Shown here: positions 37,173 to 64,000 of the stretch, one piece after another | Position numbering within the stretch: position 1 is the first letter of the stretch | Layout: every line of letters begins with the position of its first letter | Source: Emiliania huxleyi CCMP1516 | Lineage: Eukaryota | DNA length: 64,000 bases | Assembly (NCBI RefSeq): GCF_000372725.1 | Contig: NW_005201183.1 | Span: 129,972 to 193,971, forward strand | Reading direction: 5' to 3' | The notes under the pieces: generated by a model | Databases searched by the model: none | Told to the model about the DNA's origin: nothing | The model's input: the letters and a program-made list of their open reading frames with translations, nothing else | Position numbers and translations under genes: made by a program

Positions 37173-38645
37173 TCACTCGTCCGAGTTGCTGCCCGAATCA
37201 CTGTCCTCCCCGCCGCTGCTATCCTCTCCGTCAGAGGAAGTAGGCGTCGGCGGCCGGCTCGCCCACACCTCGATCTTCTTGGGCAGCAGCTGGTCTGACA
37301 GGTCCTCTCCGTGGCCTAGGCAGCCGCCCTCGCCCTTGCCCCACGTGAAGACGGCGCCGTCGGCGATGGCGATGCTGTGGAATGGTCCAGCCGACACAGC
37401 GACGACGCGCTGGCCAGCGAAGGCCTCGACCTTGTTCGGCAGCAGCTGGTTCTGCTCGTCGCCGTGGCCCAACATGCCATTGGCTCCCCAGCCCCAGCTC
37501 CAGACAGCACCGGCGGCGGTGAGGGCGAGGCTGTTGTTCAGCCCAGCCGACAGAGCGACGACGCGCCGATCAGTAAAGGCCTCGATCTTCTTGGGCAGCA
37601 GCTGCCGCTGCTCGTCACCGTGGCCCAGCTGGCCATAGTCTCCCCAGCCCCAGCTCCAGACGGCGCCGTCGGCGGTGAGGGCGAGGCTGTGAAGGCCTCC
37701 AGCCGACACAGCGACGACGCGCCGCCCCGCCAAGGCCTCGACCTTCGTCGGCAGCAGCTGGCGCTGCTCGTCGCCTTGGCCCAACCGGCCAAGGCGTCCA
37801 TCGCCCCAGCTCCAGACGGCGCCGTCGGAGGTGATGGCAAGGCTGTAGCTGCCTCCAGCCGACACGGCGACGACGCGCTGGCCATCAAAAGCCTCGACCT
37901 TCTTTGGCAGCAGCTGAGGCTGCTGGTCGCCGTGGCCCAGCTCGCCAAAGACTCCCCGGCCCCAGCTCCAAAGGCTGCCGTCGGCGGTGATGGCGAGACT
38001 GTGGCTGCCTCCTGCCGACACGGCGACAACGCGCTGCCCAGCCAACGCCTCGATCTTCTCGGGCAGCAGCTGGTTCTGCTTGTCTCCGTGGCCCAACTGG
38101 CCATTCCCTCCATAGCCCCAGCTCCAGACACAGCCATCAACGGTGAGGGCGAGGCTGTGGCCAGAGCCAGCCGACACGCTAACGGCCAGCGGAGAAGGGA
38201 GGCGGGTCGGCGTGTTGAGCCGCGCCACGCCCTCGCCATGGCCAAGCAGGACTGGGGACGGCGCAGAGCCGCACGACGAGAGCCGCCCCTCGCCGACGAT
38301 GAAGACGCTGTGCCGTTGGCCTGCCACCGCCCTCGCTGGCGGGTTGGACTCGCACAGCAGCGCCGAATAGCACAGCCACCGCACGGCGCAGCTCTCGCCC
38401 TCTGGCTGCGCCGGCAGTTCGAAGCCGCGCTCTCGCGCCCACAAGCGGATGCCCTCCACCGCAAGCGAGGCGTGGAAGAGGAGCGAGACGGCCGCGAAGC
38501 GAGCGATGTCGGCGGGGTCGCAGCGAGAGACGACGCGCACGAGGAGGTCGGTGGGGAGGTCGAGGAGGCGGGCGGGCGGGGGCGTGTCTGGCGAGGGAGC
38601 GGCGGTGGCGAGGCGGCGCGAGCGGCGGCGCGTCGGGGTGGACAT
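37173..38645 (-). CDS. RCC1-repeat (UVR8/HERC-like beta-propeller) protein with F-box-like N-terminus, intronless
   Basis: LLDLPTDLLVRV, then ~52-aa repeats VVAVSAGxxHSLALTADGxVWSWGxGxxGQLGHGD. Confidence 0.9.
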   Translation of the reverse strand: MSTPTRRRSRRLATAAPSPDTPPPARLLDLPTDLLVRVVSRCDPADIARFAAVSLLFHASLAVEGIRLWARERGFELPAQPEGESCAVRWLCYSALLCESNPPARAVAGQRHSVFIVGEGRLSSCGSAPSPVLLGHGEGVARLNTPTRLPSPLAVSVSAGSGHSLALTVDGCVWSWGYGGNGQLGHGDKQNQLLPEKIEALAGQRVVAVSAGGSHSLAITADGSLWSWGRGVFGELGHGDQQPQLLPKKVEAFDGQRVVAVSAGGSYSLAITSDGAVWSWGDGRLGRLGQGDEQRQLLPTKVEALAGRRVVAVSAGGLHSLALTADGAVWSWGWGDYGQLGHGDEQRQLLPKKIEAFTDRRVVALSAGLNNSLALTAAGAVWSWGWGANGMLGHGDEQNQLLPNKVEAFAGQRVVAVSAGPFHSIAIADGAVFTWGKGEGGCLGHGEDLSDQLLPKKIEVWASRPPTPTSSDGEDSSGGEDSDSGSNSDE

Positions 38646-39652
38646 CGTGAGAAAAAGAATTTTTAAACGCAGGACTCTCACAGCAGACAGGCTCGACACA
38701 GGTGCGAACTGGCGCGTGCTAGTACTATCACAGGCAGAGAAAAGAATTTTACGCGCTTCGCTCTCGAGAAAAATCTCAAGAACAATTTCAAAAGAGAATT
38801 TACATCCCCCCAAAAAGAAGTTGTGGTTCTCCCACCCCTCCCTTGGGTTGTCTGTTTTCTTTCTTTCTTTCTTTGGCTTCTACAAAGTTACCGCCCGACA
38901 GCACCACCGCGTCGGGCGCGGCAAACGAGAAGCAGTACATGAACATGAGCCAGAGCAGGCAAAACTCGAGCGCGCGATGGTCCAAGACTTGCGGACGAGC
39001 TCGCACTCCCAAGCCAGAGCCGGCCCGAAGGGTTTGTTTTTAGGTAAGAGGTAAGCTGCGGTCCGAGGGCGATGCCAGAGTCTGCCGCCGAGTCGGCTCT
39101 CTGGATGACGGGAAGACGCACACACGCCTCTATCCACTCGCACGCACTCCACTCAGAACACCGACCGCAGACTTGGAAAGTGACAAGTGCGCGTGTGCGA
39201 GTGAGTGAGTATTCTTGATACGTACGAAACCACGACGACACACACCAGTCGACTCGCATCGGTTGCCTCCATGAACGGCGGAGCTATTCTCGCGTCCACA
39301 CCACACCTGGCTCCAACGTGGACACGCCCATAGCTGGGGACACTACTAGGTCACGCATGGCATCAGAAGTTTCATCTCTGGGCCCCGAAAGGCATCTCTA
39401 GCAGCGTCGTTACGCATGCGCCCTCCCCTCCTGAGCGCATGCGCCTCACATCTCGACAGAGCATAAGCCCTTGGCGTGTGACGAGACGAGTTCTTCGCCA
39501 TCGCAGCGAGCAGCAACCCACTCGCCGCACCAGCCGGAGGCATCGCCGCAGCACCAGCCGCGCCGCGGTCCCGCACCCGTCGACGAAGCTCCCCCCCGGA
39601 AGACCACGCGTAGCGACGCCTTGTCATTCGAGATGAGCGCGCTTGAAGCTCG

Positions 39653-52979: not shown

Positions 52980-55900
52980 ATGCCGCCCACGCTCCTCGCC
53001 AGCTTTGTCGCTCGCGCCTCCTCCTCCGGCGACGCGGCTGCGCTCGCGGAGCTCGGCCGCGAGGGACTGAGCAGCACGAGCTACGCCTCGCTCTGCGCGA
53101 CCGTGCGCGGAGCTGCCGCCGCGCTGCAGGCGGCCGGAGTCGTGAGCGGCGAGGCCGTCGTCGACTTTTGCGACGAGGGTCGGGCCATGGTGGTCGCCAT
53201 GCTCGCCATCACCATGGCGGGCGCGGCGATGGTCCCTCTCGACCCGGCGGCGCCGCCGGCGAGGCTGTCTGCCCTCGTCGCCGACTGCGGCGCTGCGCTG
53301 GCGCTTTGCACGCGTGCGCGCCTCGCCAGTCTCGCCAGCGCGCTCGATGGCGGCCGCTGCCAGCCGCTCGCACTCGAGGACGTCCTCGTCCGCGACGCTT
53401 CTCTCCCGGCAGCGCCCGCGCCTCCACCGCCCGGCGCCCTCTGCCACCACATCTACACGAGCGGCTCGACCGGGCTGCCAAAGGCGGTCTCGGTGACGCA
53501 CGGCGCGCTGGCAAGCTACGGCCGCGAGAAGGCCCGCACGCAGCGGGTCGGAGGCGCGTCGCGAGTGCTCGTCGCCTCTGCGCACACCTGGGACCCGGCC
53601 GTCGGGGACGTGCCTTCGACCCTCGCGGTCGGCGGGCATCGTGAAGTACTGTGAATTAAGGAGGAGTGGACGACCGAATTAGGTACTCTCGACCCTCGCG
53701 GTCGGCGGGTGCGTGTGCGTCGCGCCGCGCGCGCACCTCGTCAACGACTTGGGCCACGCGATCGCCGCGACGCGCCACCCACTCGCGAGCCAGAACCTTC
53801 TAGGAACCTTCTAGGAAGCTTCTAGGAAGCCTCTAGGCGCGCCACCCACCTCCTCGCGACCCCTTCCCTGTTGTCGCTGCTCGACACGCCGCCCGCAAGC
53901 CTGCCGACGCTCGCCACGCTCGCCGTCGGGGGGGAGCTGTGCCCGCTCCCTCTCCTCGCCCCCTTCGCCGCCGTGGGGTAGTATCATTTGACTATACCGG
54001 CATACGTTCGACTAGAGCAGCATCCTTTGACTGAACTAGCACCCTTTGACCATAGGGTGGAGGTGATCAACGTGTACGGCGTCACGGAGGCCGCCGTCTA
54101 CCAGACGTACGCCACGCTCTCCCACCTCCCGCCCGACCCGGAAGGGACACCGTACTACTTGCGCGGCCGCGCCGCCGCCGCCGGCGCCGGCGTCGCCTTT
54201 GCGCCCGCCGGCATCCCCTTTCGTGGCGTCGAGCTCGCGCTCGCCCCGCCCTCCGCCCGTGCAGCGGAGGGGGGTGAGGACGGGCTCGGCTCCGACGACC
54301 GGCGCGAGCTCCTCATCGGCGGCGACCAGCTAGGAACCTTCTAGGAACCTTCTAGGAACCCTCTAGGCGCGAGCTCCTCATCGGCGGCGACCAGCTCGCC
54401 GTCGGCTACCTCAACCGGCCACGCCTCACCGCGGAAAAGTTCGTCTGGCTGCCGGACGCGGCCGTCGAGCGGCTCCCGCGCTCGTACGGCCGGGCGGCGC
54501 CGCCGCACTGCGGAGGGTGCGGAGGGCGAGGCGCGCGCGGCGGTCGAGGAGGGGGAGAGGAAGGCGGCGAGGCGGGCGGCGAGGCGGGCGGGGAGGCGGG
54601 CGGCGAGGCGGGCGGCGAGGCGGGCGGCGAGGCGGGCGGGGAGGCGGGCGGGGAGGCGGGCGGGGAGGGGCGTGGCGCGGGGCGTGGCGCGGCGTCGGGC
54701 GACGGAGGCCAGCGCTGGTTCCGCACGGGCGACGCCGCCGAGTGGGGGGCGGACGGGCTGCGGATTTGCGGCAGGCTGGACGAGCAGGTCAAGCTGCGCG
54801 GGATTCGGATCGAGCTCGGCGAGGTCGAGCACGTCGCGCGCTGCTCTGACCTCGTCACCGCCGCCGCCGCCGCCGTCCGGGGCGACCAGCTCCTGCCACA
54901 CACGTGGTGCCGCCGACCCGTCCTAGACGGTTCCTGGAGCCTTCCTGGAGCCTTCCTGTAGGCGGCCAGCTCTTGCTGTACGTTGTGCCGTCCGTGCCGC
55001 GGGCTGCGTTTGAGGAGGGCGGAGGGGGCGTCGAGGTGCTGCTGACGCTGCGCCGGCGGCTCCCGCCGCAGCTCGTCCCGGCGCAGGTGGTCGCCGTCGC
55101 CGCTCTGCCCCTCTCTCCCGGAGGCAAGCTGATGCGGTCGAGGCTGCCGCCGCCGCCGCCGCGCGCCGCGCGTCTCTCGCCCGCCGCGAGAGAGGGGTTC
55201 CGCAGCGAGACGGAGAGGCACGTCGCCGCGGCGTGGGCCGCCGCGCTCGGCGCCGCCGTCGGCCCGGGGGACAACTTTTGGCAGCTCGGCGGCACGTCGC
55301 TGATCGCCGCGAAGATGCTGCGGCTGCTGCAGGGCTCGCTGGGCGAGGAGCACGGCAGAGACTCGTTTGAGCGCGGCAACCAGCGCTTCGCGACGCGGCT
55401 GTGCGGCCTGTACCGCAAGCCGAGGCTGCGCGACTATTGTGTGTGGCTCGACTGGGCGGCGCTTCCTCCGCCGAGCCGTTCGCCGCGCGCCGCCGCCGCC
55501 TTCACCGCCTTCACGTCCGGCGCGAGGACGGCGGTCGCGGCAGAGGGGGAGGCTGCTGGCTCCGAGGCGCGGCCGGAGGAGGCGGAGGGGGCGGCGGAGG
55601 GGGCGGCGGCAAGGGCGGCGGCGGGGGAGGCGGAGGCGGCGAGGGCCGCCGCGGCGGCAGACGCCGACGAGCTCCTCGCGGCGGGCGAGGAGGAGCTGCC
55701 AGAGGAGGAGGACCTGAAGCGGCTCGCGACCGAGGCGCTCGGCGCGGCCGCCGCGACCGGCAGCGCCCGGCTGGTTGCGGCGCTGCTCGCCGCTCGCGCT
55801 TCGGCCGACGGCGGCGCCTCTCGCGCCGCGCGGGGCCCGACGCCGCTCATGCGCGCCGTCGGGCGAGAGATAGCCGAGAGACAGCGGAGAGACAGCCGAG

Positions 55901-57271
55901 AGATAGCCGAGAGACAGAGCCGAGAGATAGCCGAGAGACAGAGCCGAGAGATAGCCGAGAGACAGAGCCGAGAGATAGCCGAGATATGACGCCGCTCGTG
56001 CGCGCCGTCGGGCGCGAGAGACGCGTGGCCGCACCGGACCTGCTCGGAAGCTTCTCGGAAGCTTCTCGGAACCTTCCTGCAGGCACGTGGACGTGCTCGC
56101 GACGCTCGCTGCAGCGGGCGTGACTGTCCGCCTCTCCAGCCACTCGCACGCGAGCGCGGCACACCTCGCCGCCGCTGGCGGCCACGCTGCCTCGCTGCGG
56201 CTGCTGCTGCGGCTCGGCGCGCCGCTGCAGGCGCGCGGCACGTCCGAGCGGACGACGCTGTACCGCCACCCAAAGAGTAGCCGAGACGGGCTGGAGTTAG
56301 GCGCGGGACACGTCCAAGTGGACGGTGCTCTATCACGCGGCGTGGGGCGGCCACGCCGAGTGCGTCGCGCTGCTGCTCGACGCGCGAGCGCGCTGCGACG
56401 CCTCTGACCGGTGGGGGAGGTCGCCACTCTGCTGAGATATAGCCGAGATATAGCTGAGATAGCCGAGATATAGCCGAGATATAGCCAAGATGGGTCGCCG
56501 ATCTGCCGAGAGATAGCCGAGATATAGCCGAGATATAGCCGAGATATAGCCGAGATATAGCCGAGATATAGCCGAGATAGGTCGCCGCTCTGCTGGGCGT
56601 GCTGCCGCGCGCACGAGCGAGTGGTGGCGCTGCTCCTCGAGGCGGGCGCCAGCCCCGACGGCAACCGCCGGCCGCAGCGGGCGCACAGCGAGCGGTTCGG
56701 CCACGTGTACAGCCCGCCGCTCCACCTGGCGCTGCTCGGTGGCGATGCGGACGAGGGGCGAGGGGGCGAGGGGCCTGGGGGCGGGGAGGAGCGGCGGGAG
56801 ACAGACGAGGCTGTGGCAGCAGAGGCGGCGAGGCAGGCGCCGGGGGAGAGCTCGGCGGGTGGCGCCGCGGCGGACGTGGCGGCAGGTGGGCGGAGGGTGC
56901 GGCCGGACGCTCTAGCCGTCGTCAAGTTGCTCCTGGCCGCGCGCGCAGACGCGAATCGGCGCGACCAGCTCGGGCGCACGCCGTTGCGCGTCGCGAGCGC
57001 GGCTGGCCTCGCAGAGGCAGTGGTGCTGCTCGAGGCCGCGGGGGCGCGGCGAGACGACGAGCCGCGCGCAGGCTCTGCGCGCCATCGGGAGGAGGCTGCT
57101 GTGGCGCCCGAGGCTGCCCCTGCGAGCGGCGCGCCGGCACAGGCTGGCGCCGAGAAGCCGTGGCTCCGCGCGCGCTGCTGGGCGGCGGCGAGTTCGGGTT
57201 GGGCTTGGCCACCGGGCGTGGCGCCGCGCGAGGGAGCGACCTCGACCCGAGCGCCTGACAGGTGTGTGTGA
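52980..57271 (+). CDS. Stand-alone NRPS-like protein: adenylation + thiolation (PCP) + ankyrin repeats, multi-exon
   Basis: A-domain cores: [76 protein letters not shown] and [21 protein letters not shown]. Ankyrins: [28 protein letters not shown] and [11 protein letters not shown]. Confidence 0.88.
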
Positions 57272-58401
57272 TGAGATATTTGATGAATACAGGCGCGGCC
57301 GGGGCCCCGCGGTGCGCGAACCGCCCGCGGCGATTCGTATTTCAGTATTCGTCTTGCAGCTGCACACACGGCAAAAAAGCTTGCATTTTGTCTGCAACAG
57401 ACAACACAAACGCCGCTCTCTCTGTCTCTCTCCGAGTCCGTCAGTCCGACTCCGTCAGCTCGGGGGAGTCGTCAGAGTGTAGCGTTTGTGTACGGCTCTT
57501 TAGGCTGTAGCGACGGACGCGGTGTATATGGTGCAGTTCCATTTCACTGTGGCACAGCTCGCGTTACACAATCTTGATTTTGGTCATTTGCGCCAATTCG
57601 TACCTCTCGGTGCCTTCCAGAGGCAGCCGCGACCCCGCCGAGTGGACGGTTGCACACAGCAGGTGGCGCGGTGTGCAACCGTCCGCCACACTCGTCGGGG
57701 TCGCAGCTGCCTCCGTGCGCGTCCTGGGGAGGTACAAAATTGTCGCCGCCGGAGACGACTCGACGCCGCTGAGATCGGAGATCAAGCTCTGACAGGTCGC
57801 ACGTCGCTCCTTTGACGCCGACGTGACTCGCCCGTGCAGAGCACATCAGTACATGGTTTCGACGCGCTCGGTACGACGCCTGCGACCCGTCTCGGGTCAG
57901 GTGGCACGACGCTCATCGCGCCTGCCAGCGCTGCCGTGCAGGCTGCCACGACGAGGTCGAGCACGCTTCTATACGCTCGCCCAGCCTTCCTTTCCATCCC
58001 ATTAGGCAGCCTGGGAACGGTGGCGGTCAGAGGCAAAGCCTGCGAGGGGTGGTGGAACCACATGTCACGGCTACTGCCGGCTCGACCCCACGATAGCCTC
58101 CGAAGGCTGACTTTGAGGCACAATCATCGTACGATGTGGACGAGTTGGGTCGCTCTCGCGGTAGCCAGATGACCTCTCATACTAGTATATCATCGACCAT
58201 GGCCGCAGGGAGCGCGGGGGATGGCGCAGGGAGCAACACGGAGCTCCGTTGGACGTTTTCAAGATTAGCGCGTGTCAGAGTGAAATGGAACTAGCCGAAA
58301 CTCTCTACGGTCTACGGATCTGGATGCCGAGTTTGAGCGGCTCGTCGGAGGTGGGTTTGACGATTTGGGTGATACGCGAGGCCTGGGTGGCGAGAATGAA
58401 T

Positions 58402-60024
58402 TCAATAAAAGCCATACCGATACCCACCATACCGTCCATAATCGTCGTCAGACTCGTACCCGTCGCGACAGTCCCAACACATGGGCTTGGAGCCGCAGTA
58501 CGACGCTGGCGGCGAGTACGGGCGGCCGCAGTCGTAGCACCGGGACGTGTGCGAGCTGTATGCGCCTCGTCCGCGCCGATACGCCGCCTCAAAAGCGCGA
58601 TCGCGTTCCTCCTCCGCGCACTCCTCGCACAGCTCCTCTCCGTACTCGCAGTATTCGCCGCACCGGGTGCAGAAGCACTCGTCGTCGCTGTACTCACCGC
58701 GGCTGCTGCCACCGCTGCTGCCGCCGCTTGGTCTGGTGCTGGGTCCGCCACCGCCGCCAGTGCCAGAGGCTTGTGCGCTCAGGGCCTCGTAGGCCACCTG
58801 CAGCCGCTTGAACGCCGCCTCCGCCTGGCGCGCCTGGTTCTTGTCGGGATGGAGTAGTAGCGCGAGCTTCCGGTACGCGGCGCGCACCGCGTCCGCGCTG
58901 GCCGCCTGCGTCGCGCTGAGCTGCAGCACCGCGGCGTTCTCCCTGGGCCCCAGCTTCAGCACGCGCGCCGCCGCCTCGGCCATCGGCGTCCCCGCGCCGA
59001 ACTTGCGCAGGTGCGCGGCGAGCTGCGCCGCGGCCTCGTTGCCCTCGTGCAGCCGCAGGCTCTTCTCGCAGAAGCGCAGCGCGGCCGCGTCGTCGCCCGC
59101 CTCGTGCCGCTTCCGCGCCTTGTCGAGCCATTCCTCCGCCGCCTGCCGGTTGGTCTCGGAGCAGATCGCGGGCGACGGCGCCGCCTCGCGGGGCGTCGCG
59201 TCGGCGGGTGGAGGGGGTGGCGCGGCAGCAGCCTCTGCCGGCTGCTGCGCCGCCGTCTCTGTCGCGTTTGCCGCCTCCGCTGTCGGTGCCTCTGCTGCGG
59301 CACCCGTCGCCTTCGCCTCCGCCGCAGCTGGTCCAGCCGCTGCGGGTGCAGGCGCCGCGCGCGCGGGCCGGCGGAACCGCTTCGGCTTCCACGCTCCTCG
59401 CGAAAAGGGTTGTTTGACGGTCTCCGCCTCCTGGACGAGCTTGCAGCTGATTCTAAAGCCGTAGCCATAGTTAACGCCAGGAAAGGACAGCTCGAAGTCA
59501 TGCATCTGCAGCTGTGCCTCCTTGGCGTTCGCTGGGTCAGCGTACACGATGTTGGCCATGTTGGCCAGCCGGTAGTTCATCATCTTGCTCGTTGGGTCCT
59601 TCATCAGCGTTACCTGCAGTAGCTCGCCAAACGGCGAGAACTTCGCACGCACCTGCATCGCGCTGACGTCCGGGTGTAGCCCAGAGACCCTCAGCTGCCA
59701 CTGGGTCGGCACAGGCGGCCGCTGCGCAGTCGGCTCAGCACCGAAGACAAATGTCGTCTTTGGAGGTGCAAACTCAACCGTCTGCCCAGTCGCAGCGCTC
59801 TTCGCTTCGACCGACAGACCCTCGAACCCGGCGGCCATCACCGAGTCCGGGCTGCAGGGCTCGGACGCATCGGAGGAGCGCCGCCTCTCGGCGCTAAGAC
59901 GGCGGTGCCGCACGCGGTCGCATGCGACACACATGTCCACAAGGAACTCATCCTCGTCGAACTCAATCGGTATGGAGCACTGGCTGCACAGCTCCGAGGG
60001 GTGTGGCGCGCTCGATGCCGCCAT
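58402..60024 (-). CDS. RRM + TPR-like helix + DnaJ (J-domain) protein with Cys-rich termini, intronless
   Basis: LRVSGLHPDVSAMQVRAKFSPFG (RRM); AYRKLALLLHPDKN..AEAAFKRLQVAYEAL (J-domain with HPD); CxxC pairs at both ends. Confidence 0.85.
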   Translation of the reverse strand: MAASSAPHPSELCSQCSIPIEFDEDEFLVDMCVACDRVRHRRLSAERRRSSDASEPCSPDSVMAAGFEGLSVEAKSAATGQTVEFAPPKTTFVFGAEPTAQRPPVPTQWQLRVSGLHPDVSAMQVRAKFSPFGELLQVTLMKDPTSKMMNYRLANMANIVYADPANAKEAQLQMHDFELSFPGVNYGYGFRISCKLVQEAETVKQPFSRGAWKPKRFRRPARAAPAPAAAGPAAAEAKATGAAAEAPTAEAANATETAAQQPAEAAAAPPPPPADATPREAAPSPAICSETNRQAAEEWLDKARKRHEAGDDAAALRFCEKSLRLHEGNEAAAQLAAHLRKFGAGTPMAEAAARVLKLGPRENAAVLQLSATQAASADAVRAAYRKLALLLHPDKNQARQAEAAFKRLQVAYEALSAQASGTGGGGGPSTRPSGGSSGGSSRGEYSDDECFCTRCGEYCEYGEELCEECAEEERDRAFEAAYRRGRGAYSSHTSRCYDCGRPYSPPASYCGSKPMCWDCRDGYESDDDYGRYGGYRYGFY

Positions 60025-60340
60025 CGGCGCACGAACAATCGAGGCGCCGCCTTTCTGGCGGGAAATTCTGTGCATGCGGGGTCGTTTGTACAGAATCTTG
60101 CCCATGGGTTATGCGAAAAGAATCTTGCGACGCCATACTAGTACTTCCGCGCGCGCGTGGGGCTGGGGGGAGTCGGAGAGGGCCGTGCAGGACGCTGTTG
60201 TTGGAGGATGGTACACTGTCGCGTCGTCCTAGCACGGGGGAGTTCGAGGGGGAGTGCCCGTACCCGTGATGTGGACCGCTAGGTGTAACAGCAGCAACGT
60301 CAGTAACCTCGGCTCCTGCGCTCCTCGCCGCCTTCCCTGC

Positions 60341-61765
60341 TCACTGCCCCGGCGCCCACGCCTCGACCTTCTTGGGCAGCAGCTGGTCCGACAGGTCCTC
60401 CCCGTGGCCTAGGCAGCCGCCGCCGCCCTCGCCCCACGAGAAGAAGGCGCCGTCGGCGGTGAGGGCGAGGCTGTGGAACGCTCCAGCCGACACAGCGATG
60501 ACGCGCCGCCCCGCCAAGGCCTCGACCTTCTTGGGCAGCAGCTGGTTCTGCGTGTCGCCGTGGCCCAGCCGGCCCCCGCCTCCATGGCCCCAGCTCCAAA
60601 TGGCGCCGTCGGCGGTGATGGCGAGGCTGTGGAAGCGTCCAGCCGACACAGCGACGACGTGCTGGTCAGCAAAGGCCTCGACCTTCTTCGGCAGCAGCTG
60701 GTCCTGCTCGTCGCCGTGGCCCAGCTTGCCAAAGCCTCCCCCACCCCAGCTCCAGACGCTGCCGTCGGCAGTGAGGGCGAGGCTGTGGAGTGCTCCAGCC
60801 GACACAGCGACGACGCGTTGTCCGAAGGCCTCGATCTTCGTGGGCTCCAGCTGGGCCTGCTGGTCGCCGTGGCCCAACTGGCTGAAGAATCCAGAGCCCC
60901 AGCTCCAGACGGCGCCGTCGGCGGTGGTGGCGAGGCTGTAGTCATCTCCAGCCGACACAGCGACGACGCGCTGGCCAGCAAAGGCCTCGACCTTCTTCGG
61001 CAGCAGCTGGCGCTGTCGGTCGCCGTGGCCGAGCTTGCCAGAGCCTCCCTCGCCCCAGCTCCAGACGCCGCCATCTGCGGTGAGGGCGAAGCTGTGGAAG
61101 ACTCCCGCCGAGACTGCGACGACGCTCTGGCCCGCAAAGGCCGCAATCTTCGTCGGCTGCCACTGGCCCTGATGGTCGCCGTGGCCCAGCGCGCCCAAGC
61201 CTCCCTGGCCCCAGCTCCAAACGGCGCCGCTGCTAGTGAGGGCGAGGCAGTGGAATCCTCCAACCGCCACGCTCACGGCGCGCTCGCCACCCAGCGTGGA
61301 AGGGAGGCGGGTCGGCGTGTTGAGCCGCGTCACACCCTCGCCGTGGCCGAGGAGGCCTGGGATGTGATCCGGCGCGCAGCCGCTCGACGAGAGCCGCCCC
61401 TCGCCGACGATGAAGACGCTGTGCTGTTGGCCTGCGGCCGCCCTCGCCGGCGGGTTGGACTCGCGCAGCAGCGCGGCGAAACACAGCCACCGCACGGCGC
61501 AGCTCTCGCCCTCTGGCTGCGCCGGCAGCTCGAAGCCGCGCTCTTGCGCCCACAAGCGGATGGCCTCCAGCGCCAGCGAGGCGTGGAAGAGGAGCGAGAC
61601 GGCCGCGACGCGAGCGATGTCGGCGGGGTCGCAGCGAGAGATGGCGCGCACGAGGAGCTCCGTGGGGAGGTCGAGGAGGCGGGCGGGCGGCGGCGTGTCT
61701 GGCGAGGGGGCGGCGGTGGCGGCGGGGGCGAGGCGGCGCGAGCGGCGGCGCGGCGGGGTGGACAT
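60341..61765 (-). CDS. RCC1-repeat protein with F-box-like N-terminus, paralog of 37173-38645
   Basis: Same architecture, and near-identical upstream sequence (61766-61898 vs 38646-38805). Confidence 0.9.
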   Translation of the reverse strand: MSTPPRRRSRRLAPAATAAPSPDTPPPARLLDLPTELLVRAISRCDPADIARVAAVSLLFHASLALEAIRLWAQERGFELPAQPEGESCAVRWLCFAALLRESNPPARAAAGQQHSVFIVGEGRLSSSGCAPDHIPGLLGHGEGVTRLNTPTRLPSTLGGERAVSVAVGGFHCLALTSSGAVWSWGQGGLGALGHGDHQGQWQPTKIAAFAGQSVVAVSAGVFHSFALTADGGVWSWGEGGSGKLGHGDRQRQLLPKKVEAFAGQRVVAVSAGDDYSLATTADGAVWSWGSGFFSQLGHGDQQAQLEPTKIEAFGQRVVAVSAGALHSLALTADGSVWSWGGGGFGKLGHGDEQDQLLPKKVEAFADQHVVAVSAGRFHSLAITADGAIWSWGHGGGGRLGHGDTQNQLLPKKVEALAGRRVIAVSAGAFHSLALTADGAFFSWGEGGGGCLGHGEDLSDQLLPKKVEAWAPGQ

Positions 61766-63814
61766 CGTGAGAAAAAGAAGTTAAACACAGACAGGCTCGA
61801 CACAGGTGCGAACTGGCGCGTGCTAGTACTACCACAGGCAGAGAAAAGAATTTTACGCGCTTCGCTCTCGAGAACAATTTCAAAAGAGAATTTACATCGG
61901 GCCAAAAACTGTCCGCGTGAGCAAGCAGGGCGGGGACACACGATTCCAGAAATGGTTGTGTCCCCGCTCCTCGCTCGCCCGGGCGGAGGGCATGGCCGCG
62001 GAGGAGGCGAGTACGCGCTGCCAGGCCTTCCGCAGACAGCCTCTTGGCCAGACTGAGGGTCGGCTTTGTGTGGCGTGGCCCGTGCGCTGCGCTGCACAAA
62101 GCTGCGTAAACTGCGGGAGCATCCTGTGCTTCCTTTGGGAAGTGCGCACTTCCTGCAGCTGGTGGAAGGCCGTGCCGCCGCTCGTCTGCTCCGTGGACAG
62201 GGCGGGGAGGCGGCACCGCAGCGCCGCAGCGTCCGCTGCACGCCGGTGCAGCACTCTGCTGCCTGGTGGGCAGCATGCTGGTGCTGTGCGCGGTGTTTGC
62301 GAGGCGGCTTTGGCGCTGTACTGCCAGCCGAGGCGAGTGGCGCGCGGCACGCGCGGCGCCGCGCGTGGCCCGGATGGCGCCTGAGAGCGCGCTCGATGAG
62401 CCAGCCGGCGCGGCGCGAGCGCCGTGCAAGCTGGCACATCGTCTGCATGCTGCCGTCGATTCTCTGGTCGACGGCGGTCAATCTCACGATTGTCGATCAA
62501 AACCGGCGGGCTTTGTGACGCCGTTTACGCAATCGTTTTTTGGCCTCGCTTTCTCTTTTGCTTGGTTTTATTTTGTTTTTTCGTTTGCGAAGCGACAGAG
62601 GGGGGGGCGGGCGGGCGCTAACTATGGGCAACTACATGTCGAAGGTTCGAGGTCGACTACTCCCCCCCTGGGTTTTTTGGGGGGGGGGGTTCCTTAAAGG
62701 ACCGGGGGGGCCCCTTTCCCGGGGGGGGGAAGGTCCCCTTTTGACGTAAAAAGGGGGGGCAGGGAAAAGGGCCCCACTCATAAATTCCACTAATTTTTTC
62801 CCTGGCCCCCCCCCCCCCTCGGAGGCCGCGGCCTTTCCCCTGGGGGTCCCCCCCTCCGGCCTCCTCCTCCTTGGTCCTTCCCCCCCGGCCGCCGCCTTCC
62901 CCGTCACCTCCCTGGCCATCCTTTCCTTCACCGCCTTCCTGGAGGTTCCCCCTCCCTCCCCGCCGGGACCGCCTCCCCNNNNNNNNNNNNNNNNNNNNNN
63001 NNNNNNNNNNNNNNNNNNNNNNNNNNNNNNNNNNNNNNNNNNNNNNNNNNNNNNNNNNNNNNNNNNNNNNNNNNNNNNCCTTTTCCCTTTTTTTTTTGGG
63101 GGGCCCTCCCCTTTAGGGATCTTTTTCACCCCCGGGGTTTAGTTTTTGGGGGGGTTCCCCCCAGGCGTGTTTTTTTCAAAAACCCCGGAACCAAAATTTT
63201 GCCCGGGGGCCCAGCATATTAAACGGGTTTTTTGGCGGTTCCCCCTCTAACCTCGGGGGCCCCCCCCCCCCCCCCCGCCGCCGTTTCCTTAATCTTCTCT
63301 CTCGCCGTTTTTACAGGGCGGCTTCCTTTTCCCCCCCCCCCCCCCCACACGCCCCACGGCCGCGGAAGCTGCCCGCCGCGGAAGCTGCTCGATAGGTGTC
63401 TCGCAGCTGCGTATTCTCGTATTCTCGTATTCTCGTCGCGTAGTGTGATATTGCGGTGGGGCGGTGCGTATTCTCGTATTACTAGCTCCGAGTAGAGGGC
63501 AGCGTCCTGCAGTTAAGGGGAAACCTGGTACGCGGGTCCAACCCTCGGAGAGTACTCTTTAGCTCCGAGTAGAGGGGGCGCTCCGCTGCTAGGGGAAACC
63601 TGGAGCGCGGACTAACCCTCGGAGACGTGTTATGGCCCTGCGACCGCGCACCCCCGGGGCTAGGGCTCTCTAGCCCGTAACCCGATGCCGAGCGTCCGGC
63701 CAACTGGGTGCGCTTCTCAGCTCCCCGGTCCTGGGCGTGAGGTTACTGATTGCACTCCAAGTGCTCCAAGTGCGTGGGCGGTTGAGCATCCCTCCGGGGG
63801 CCCCTCTGCGCCGT

Positions 63815-64000
63815 GCTGCCCAAGAAGGTCGAGGCCTTTGCAGGGCGGCGCGTCGTCGCTGTGTCGGCTGGACGCAGCCACAGCCTCACCACCACCGCCG
63901 ACGACGCCGTCTTTACCTGGGGCAAGGGCGGCCGCGGCTGCCTAGGCCACGGAGAGGACCTGTCGAACCAGCTGCTGCCCAAGAAGATCGAGGCGTGGGG
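63815..64000 (+). pseudogene. Isolated last-repeat fragment of the same RCC1 family
   Basis: LPKKVEAFAGRRVVAVSAGRSHSL..VFTWGKGGRGCLGHGEDLSNQLLPKKIEAW; the upstream sequence is repeat-derived. Confidence 0.75.

What the first reader, a model, noticed from the sequence alone, without database searches (positions are those of the whole stretch)
52980..57271. A-T-ankyrin NRPS-like enzyme with no condensation, thioesterase or reductase domain
Nine A-domain core motifs (A1-A8, A10) and the phosphopantetheine Ser (GGTSL) look intact. The A4 Asp (WD) implies an amino-acid substrate. Known eukaryotic stand-alone A-T enzymes end in a catalytic or propeller domain (Lys2 reductase, Ebony C-terminal domain, AASDH PQQ-like repeats). 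Ankyrin repeats are protein-binding, so this enzyme may hand the activated amino acid to a partner enzyme or a protein target (inference).
Basis: partly seen in the sequence, partly recalled or inferred. Interest (0 to 1): 0.7.

Follow-up and report, generated by a model that had tools for sequence, protein, structure and literature searches.

The report
Amino-acid loader with ankyrin hand-off groove
This spliced, transcribed algal gene encodes an enzyme that likely activates an amino acid, tethers it to its own carrier arm and likely passes it to an unknown partner held in a conserved groove of its ankyrin repeats; the same layout occurs in many unrelated plankton groups and we found no paper that gives it a function.

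Summary
A nine-exon gene (52980-57271) gives an unbroken 1159-residue adenylation-thiolation-ankyrin protein, and RNA contigs support all eight introns. It belongs to a family: 43 database clusters share the layout, none with a condensation, thioesterase or reductase domain. Named members come from haptophytes, diatoms, a dinoflagellate, a prasinophyte (partial), diplonemids and a choanoflagellate; no fusion was seen in 90 prokaryotic or viral loci. The catalytic Asp, Lys and carrier Ser are invariant and the substrate pocket is family-specific. New here: one ankyrin repeat keeps a Trp-Arg-Trp triad on its binding face in 44 of 55 divergent members, against 0 of 1278 background repeats, which points to one conserved ligand. 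Best reading: the enzyme loads an amino acid and hands it to an acceptor bound in that groove; substrate and acceptor are untested. The scan noted this layout before in Ostreococcus. New variant of the stand-alone NRPS-like enzymes.

The parts
52980..57271 (+). Whole gene, 9 exons, 1159-aa A-T-ankyrin protein
52980..55140 (+). Adenylation domain (exons 1-6): A3 loop 53454-53483, A4 Asp 53592-53594, A5 54069-54089, A7 54719-54733, A8 54770-54829, A10 Lys 55126-55128; pocket code DPGLAGVVYK; Gly/Glu/Ala repeat insert 54539-54668
   Evidence: best NCBIfam model for 10 of 10 close relatives is TIGR01733 amino acid adenylation domain, below its cut-off in the member shown
55204..55467 (+). Thiolation (carrier) domain with Ser653 at 55297-55299 and a family-specific insert between helices 2 and 3 (55360-55467), nearly invariant in the haptophyte subfamily
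55468..55734 (+). Ala/Glu-rich low-complexity linker, variable in the family
55735..57050 (+). About seven ankyrin repeats across exons 6-9; repeat 6 is interrupted by a low-complexity insert
   Evidence: fold of a relative's T-ANK half is a plain ankyrin stack
56406..56611 (+). Ankyrin repeat 5 (split by intron 8) with the conserved Trp3-Arg5-Trp10 binding-face triad
57200..57214 (+). C-terminal WAWPP motif; a W-x-WPP or x-WPP motif occurs once or twice in 9 of 10 closest relatives and in none of the 33 more distant ones (one has a similar WPWP)
53610..56580 (+). Eight short introns (65-220 nt), five with GC donors, five with 11-bp tandem repeats; five begin with a near copy of the next exon's start

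Best explanation
The gene encodes one spliced, transcribed adenylation-thiolation-ankyrin protein with no release domain, which likely activates a single amino acid with ATP, likely tethers it as a thioester to a phosphopantetheine arm on Ser653, and likely hands it to one conserved acceptor held in the groove of ankyrin repeats 4-6. Shown: gene structure, splicing, domain order, intact catalytic residues, family-wide conservation of the pocket and of one ankyrin face. From established NRPS chemistry: adenylation and thiolation. Inferred: that the loaded carrier docks on the ankyrin stack, and that the acceptor bound there (most likely a conserved protein or peptide, otherwise an anionic small molecule) takes the aminoacyl group by direct attack on the thioester. 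The substrate is unassigned; small residues at pocket positions 239, 299 and 301 suggest a roomy pocket.
For: Intact spliced frame. Asp235, Pro236, the A10 Lys and the carrier Ser are invariant in 43 of 43 aligned full-length members; D-P in 65 of 65 family A domains, G301 in 62, Y331 in 60: one substrate under selection. No C, TE or R domain in 43 of 43 clusters or in the 27 locus ORFs scanned; extra domains are only armadillo-like tails and one J-domain/CSL head. At 29% mean identity, binding-face positions of repeat 5 are W3 50, R5 50, W10 53 of 55, repeat 4 R13 42, repeat 6 R13 41 and E5 35, while in repeats 2-3 the top residue at such positions reaches at most 22 of 55 apart from the framework-like Leu10 (34). 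Triad together 44 of 55 versus 0 of 1278 background repeats (singly 0.5%, 14.6%, 4.0%). The single-chain model of a relative's T-ANK half has pTM 0.85 across a low-confidence linker; by my arithmetic an unplaced 92-residue carrier would cap pTM near 0.74, so the model packs carrier on ankyrin in a defined pose (contacts not visible to me).
Against: No activity, substrate or partner was measured. The ankyrin half matches only ordinary ankyrin proteins (best Z 19.8, rmsd 2.1, 186 aligned), with no known catalytic fold. Family members are related, so the triad counts are not independent events, and the background is a pattern-defined set from giant repeat proteins. The window's own subfamily replaces Gln5/Arg13 of repeat 4 with Trp and lacks Glu5/Arg13 of repeat 6, so the site is not identical everywhere. 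The carrier domain scores below Pfam's cut-off. The full-length model of a close relative is uncertain in domain arrangement (pTM 0.46). A conserved groove fits a docked partner enzyme equally well.
Confidence: 0.5

Rival explanations
1. Trans-acting loading module: the ankyrin half only docks a separate catalytic enzyme, such as an orphan condensation domain of a polyketide synthase, which takes the amino acid from the carrier.
For: PMC4661987 Table 1 footnotes: two Emiliania PKSs and one Ostreococcus lucimarinus PKS may hold a C domain with no A domain. Fungal NRPS9 is an A-T didomain that likely loads NRPS5 (PMC6389888). PMC6361889 notes that probably trans-acting PKS/NRPS domains of Symbiodiniaceae are often fused to ankyrin, HEAT or PPR repeats.
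Against: The family is in diatoms, while the same table lists no type I PKS or NRPS for Pseudo-nitzschia multiseries (a different species from the P. multistriata hit). No C, TE, KS or transferase gene among 81 window ORFs scanned (81 chosen from ORFs of 170 aa or more, spliced genes can be missed) and no biosynthetic neighbour shared across lineages.
Confidence: 0.25
2. No transfer step: loading of the carrier acts as an amino-acid sensor or store, and the ankyrin groove binds a regulatory ligand or the protein's own carrier arm.
For: No release domain in any member; the model packs carrier on ankyrin; RNase L, whose ankyrin groove binds a nucleotide ligand (recalled), is among the tied fold matches.
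Against: No precedent known to me for an NRPS-like sensor; one invariant pocket and carrier Ser fit turnover just as well.
Confidence: 0.12
3. The enzyme serves a J-protein or diphthamide-related step on a translation factor.
For: One metagenome ORF (L049) fuses a DnaJ domain and a CSL zinc finger, the Dph4/DNAJC24 layout (recalled), to the A-T-ANK body. DnaJ genes also lie beside the gene in the picoalgal syntenic block, in L057 and in the window.
Against: The fusion is seen in 1 of 34 locus groups and no CSL finger was found in the other 79 loci or the window; the neighbouring DnaJ genes are of different types and DnaJ genes are common.
Confidence: 0.07
4. Artefact: a pseudogene or two merged genes.
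For: No RNA contig spans the whole gene; one run retains intron 2.
Against: Open spliced frame; carrier and first ankyrin repeats on one exon; many relatives encode the whole layout in one intron-free ORF.
Confidence: 0.02

Closest known systems
AASDH / ACSF4-U26 (animal A-T-beta-propeller enzyme)
   Same: Single-module A-T enzyme ending in a repeat domain rather than a known catalytic domain; described as beta-alanine-activating and possibly acting in post-translational modification (PMC10531068 passages). A D-P pair at the A4 motif in AASDH is recalled, not checked.
   Different: Ankyrin stack instead of PQQ-like propeller. No propeller protein among the 120 listed of 220 pocket-region hits, so close kinship is not shown.
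Ebony (insect A-T enzyme with atypical condensation domain)
   Same: A-T plus a C-terminal domain that is not a standard condensation domain (PMC10531068 passages; the structure paper was not held).
   Different: Here the C-terminal half is a plain ankyrin fold; Ebony's is an acetyltransferase-like fold (recalled).
Fungal NRPS9-type A-T loading didomains
   Same: Stand-alone A-T with no release domain that passes its cargo to another protein (PMC6389888 passages).
   Different: NRPS9 lies in a cluster beside its partner NRPS5 and has no ankyrin tail; here no partner gene is adjacent.
Lys2 aminoadipate reductase and diatom PtNRPS1 (A-T-R, A-T-R-R)
   Same: Eukaryotic single-module A-T enzymes (PMC13194791 passages); relatives match TIGR03443 weakly.
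   Different: No reductase domain; TIGR03443 score 105 against a cut-off of 1030 in the member shown.

Membership tests
NRPS-type amino-acid adenylation domain | Core motifs A1-A10 with catalytic Lys and amine-binding Asp | tested here: met
   fold search of a relative's model returns NRPS modules first
NRPS-type amino-acid adenylation domain | ATP-dependent activation of an amino acid | not testable with these tools
   needs an exchange assay
Stand-alone NRPS-like A-T enzyme | Carrier domain with conserved Ser directly after A, no condensation domain | tested here: met
   Ser invariant in 43 of 43; four-helix carrier in the model; Pfam score of the window's copy is below cut-off
Canonical NRPS | Condensation domain | tested here: not met
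   none in the window exons or 43 clusters
AASDH / ACSF4 | C-terminal PQQ-like beta-propeller | tested here: not met
   C-terminal half is all-helical ankyrin
AASDH / ACSF4 | A domain within or sister to the AASDH clade | tested here: inconclusive
   no AASDH sequence was retrieved, so none is in the tree
AASDH / ACSF4 | Beta-alanine activation | not testable with these tools
   needs an assay
Ebony | Acetyltransferase-like C-terminal condensation domain | tested here: not met
   C-terminal half is positively identified as ankyrin by Pfam and fold
Lys2 / A-T-R reductases | C-terminal NAD(P)H reductase domain | tested here: not met

The most novel reading that the evidence does not exclude
The ankyrin groove is itself the transfer site: the loaded carrier docks on repeats 4-6, whose Trp/Arg/Glu cluster holds the acceptor and promotes amide formation. 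That would make this a pan-plankton aminoacyl transferase that uses an ankyrin fold in place of a condensation domain, installing an undescribed protein modification or metabolite shared by haptophytes, diatoms, picoalgae, dinoflagellates, diplonemids and choanoflagellates.
Probability: 0.2. Interest if true: 0.85.

Novelty: new variant of a known kind. Interest (0 to 1): 0.6.

Why it matters
NRPS surveys of algae count condensation domains or lump such genes as 'Other(A)' (PMC4661987, PMC7073580), so a family kept with one substrate pocket and one ankyrin binding face across distant plankton lineages has had no function assigned. It bears on an open question also posed by AASDH: where does an amino acid go when the carrier ends in a repeat domain? 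Compact, intron-free members (about 850 aa) and three named residues make the question directly testable.

Tried and rejected
No genome was held for the window, so copy number, a phosphopantetheinyl transferase and orphan C domains in this organism were not checked. A full-length profile search was swamped by two-module NRPSs and the T-ANK profile search by giant ankyrin proteins (reused as background). The carrier-ankyrin complex prediction returned no fold and no verdict, so docking contacts stay open. VIA rows that start at model residue 36 were not read as evidence of docking. The substrate could not be assigned: nearest solved pockets are generic NRPS domains and a search for a recalled Lys2 code found 0 papers. 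Gene-cluster reading rejected: shared neighbours occur mainly among six locus groups that look like one syntenic picoalgal lineage and are housekeeping genes. Bacterial or viral origin of the fusion not seen: 0 of 90 loci with ankyrin, 0 of 139 A4 motifs with D-P; these scans need a short pattern match and are not exhaustive, and 6 of 39 similarity-selected outgroup A domains do have D-P. Family monophyly is weak alone (aLRT 14.7) and strong only with P0250 (98.4); P0030 was dropped; the tree has no AASDH, Lys2 or Ebony and cannot give a donor. An earlier tree dropped 21 rows through a pattern error. The carrier Ser counts hold by construction and were not used. An alternative reading of intron 6 as two introns was rejected by the 220-nt joint. 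Atlas search of the A domain gave only generic bacterial clusters. Two papers were not held; supplements of PMC6361889 and PMC7073580 could not be read and may list members of this family.

Full report
Gene. Three-frame reading and splice-site search gave nine exons between 52980 and 57271, eight introns (3 GT-AG, 5 GC-AG) and an open frame of 1159 residues. Sixteen of 20 listed runs hold the stretch, four on record as RNA. Eight were laid. Joints match the model for introns 1 and 3-8, and intron 2 is implied by record coordinates in two runs and retained in one. X15 shows none of the joints and acts as a DNA-like control. No contig spans the whole gene because a GC-rich repeat at 55572-55670 is skipped, but the carrier domain and the first ankyrin repeats share exon 6. 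Contigs run past the stop to 57513 without a joint. The organism is a haptophyte by its closest named relatives; the intron style resembles Emiliania (recalled). No genome was held.

Domains. Pfam finds AMP-binding, a sub-threshold phosphopantetheine site and ankyrin repeats, and nothing else. For ten close relatives the best NCBIfam model is the amino-acid adenylation domain, and a model of one of them (pLDDT 67, pTM 0.46) matches NRPS modules first. A better model of a compact relative's carrier-ankyrin half (pLDDT 86, pTM 0.85) matches only ordinary ankyrin proteins.

Family. Exon 6 retrieved 10 clusters with the same layout among 31 hits. A pocket-region search listed 120 of 220 hits; the first 49 rows are family members or A-only fragments, and 33 more A-plus-ankyrin clusters appeared. 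None of the 43 carries a condensation, thioesterase or reductase domain. Named members: Prymnesium parvum (two paralogues), Chrysochromulina parva, Pseudo-nitzschia multistriata, Seminavis robusta, Symbiodinium microadriaticum, Cymbomonas tetramitiformis (partial), Diplonema papillatum, Lacrimia lanifica and Stephanoeca diplocostata. The ESM Atlas has two all-eukaryote clusters of this layout, 66 and 60 members, with few taxon records. A metagenome scan kept 80 of 164 loci, in 34 groups, many with the whole layout in one ORF. Scans of GTDB and IMG/VR gave 74 and 16 loci, none with ankyrin, against 68 control hits. In an A-domain tree the 65 members exclude the 39 outgroup domains, with weak support alone (14.7) and strong support with P0250 (98.4); the window's protein is sister to P. 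parvum AB1Y20_023458.

Conserved features. The A4 Asp-Pro, A10 Lys and carrier Ser are invariant in 43 of 43 aligned members. The pocket reads D-P-(G/S)-(L/C)-A-G-T-V-Y-K, with D-P in 65 of 65; the window has DPGLAGVVYK (position numbering from recalled GrsA convention and the alignments). I could not match it to a substrate. The carrier has an insert between helices 2 and 3. On the ankyrin stack, positions that normally vary (recalled DARPin numbering) are fixed in one place: repeat 5 has Trp3, Arg5 and Trp10 in 50, 50 and 53 of 55 members dereplicated at 70% identity (5 of 65 dropped for a missed pattern), flanked by Arg13 in repeats 4 and 6, while repeats 2-3 vary. The triad occurs together in 44 of 55 and in 0 of 1278 repeats from 150 unrelated proteins. 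The members are related, so this shows selection on one site, not 44 independent events.

Mechanism. Adenylation and thiolation follow from NRPS chemistry and the intact residues. What empties the carrier is inferred. One conserved groove means one conserved ligand, and a pTM of 0.85 across a loose linker suggests that the carrier docks on the stack (my arithmetic caps an unplaced carrier near 0.74). I put hand-off to an acceptor held in that groove at 0.5, docking of a separate enzyme at 0.25, a sensor or store at 0.12, a J-protein or diphthamide link at 0.07 (one Dph4-like fusion, L049) and artefact at 0.02. No biosynthetic neighbour is seen in the window or shared across lineages.

What is known. 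Ten paper searches found no description of an A-T-ankyrin family or its function; the library lacks most subscription papers. Seen as passages: PMC6361889 (also section 9), which remarks that dinoflagellate PKS/NRPS single domains are often fused to ankyrin, HEAT or PPR repeats; PMC4661987 (also section 5); PMC7073580, which counts eight 'Other(A)' genes in Emiliania without mention of ankyrin; PMC4580454, which found no stand-alone NRPS pathway in Chrysochromulina tobin; PMC13194791; PMC10531068; PMC8283056; PMC6389888; PMC10512218; PMC4647583. Others were seen as listings only. Two supplements could not be read. Two earlier notes of this scan describe the layout, with armadillo tails, in Ostreococcus; such tails occur in L016, L069, P0214 and P0237.

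Verdict. A real, expressed member of an uncharacterised and widespread protist family: a new variant of stand-alone NRPS-like enzymes that works like AASDH or Ebony in outline but belongs to neither. Interest 0.6.

Noticed in passing
L049:318-4148 (+): One stop-free 1277-aa ORF at 34% GC fuses a DnaJ domain and CSL zinc finger (Dph4/DNAJC24-like layout, recalled) to the A-T-ankyrin body; seen in 1 of 80 loci.
   Followed up: partly
window 53610-56580 (introns): Five of eight introns start with a near copy of the next exon's first 20 nt (15-20 of 20 identical) and five hold 11-bp tandem repeats, while close relatives are intron-free (L066): looks like recent intron gain by local duplication.
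   Followed up: partly
window 57200-57214: C-terminal W-x-W-P-P motif, usually in two copies in a disordered tail, limited to the haptophyte subfamily; a likely short binding motif, partner unknown.
   Followed up: partly
window 53772-53836: Intron 2 is retained in the main contig of run X1 but spliced in X3 and X14; retention would break the frame.
   Followed up: no
window 57228-57317: In run X14 (organism C) this stretch around the stop codon is replaced by about 26 other letters, so the tail after WAWPP differs between strains.
   Followed up: no
L016, L069, L071, P0214, P0237: A subgroup adds armadillo-like repeats after the ankyrin stack (Pfam Arm hit only in L016).
   Followed up: no
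window 58402-60108 (-): Neighbouring gene with RRM, DnaJ and a weak zinc-ribbon match.
   Followed up: no
window 60341-61780 (-) and 37176-38879 (-): RCC1-repeat genes, the first with an F-box-like head; a further partial copy near 63664-63945.
   Followed up: no
L064:3696-6356 (-): Ankyrin plus 2OG-Fe(II) oxygenase gene lying tail to tail with a family member; one locus only.
   Followed up: no
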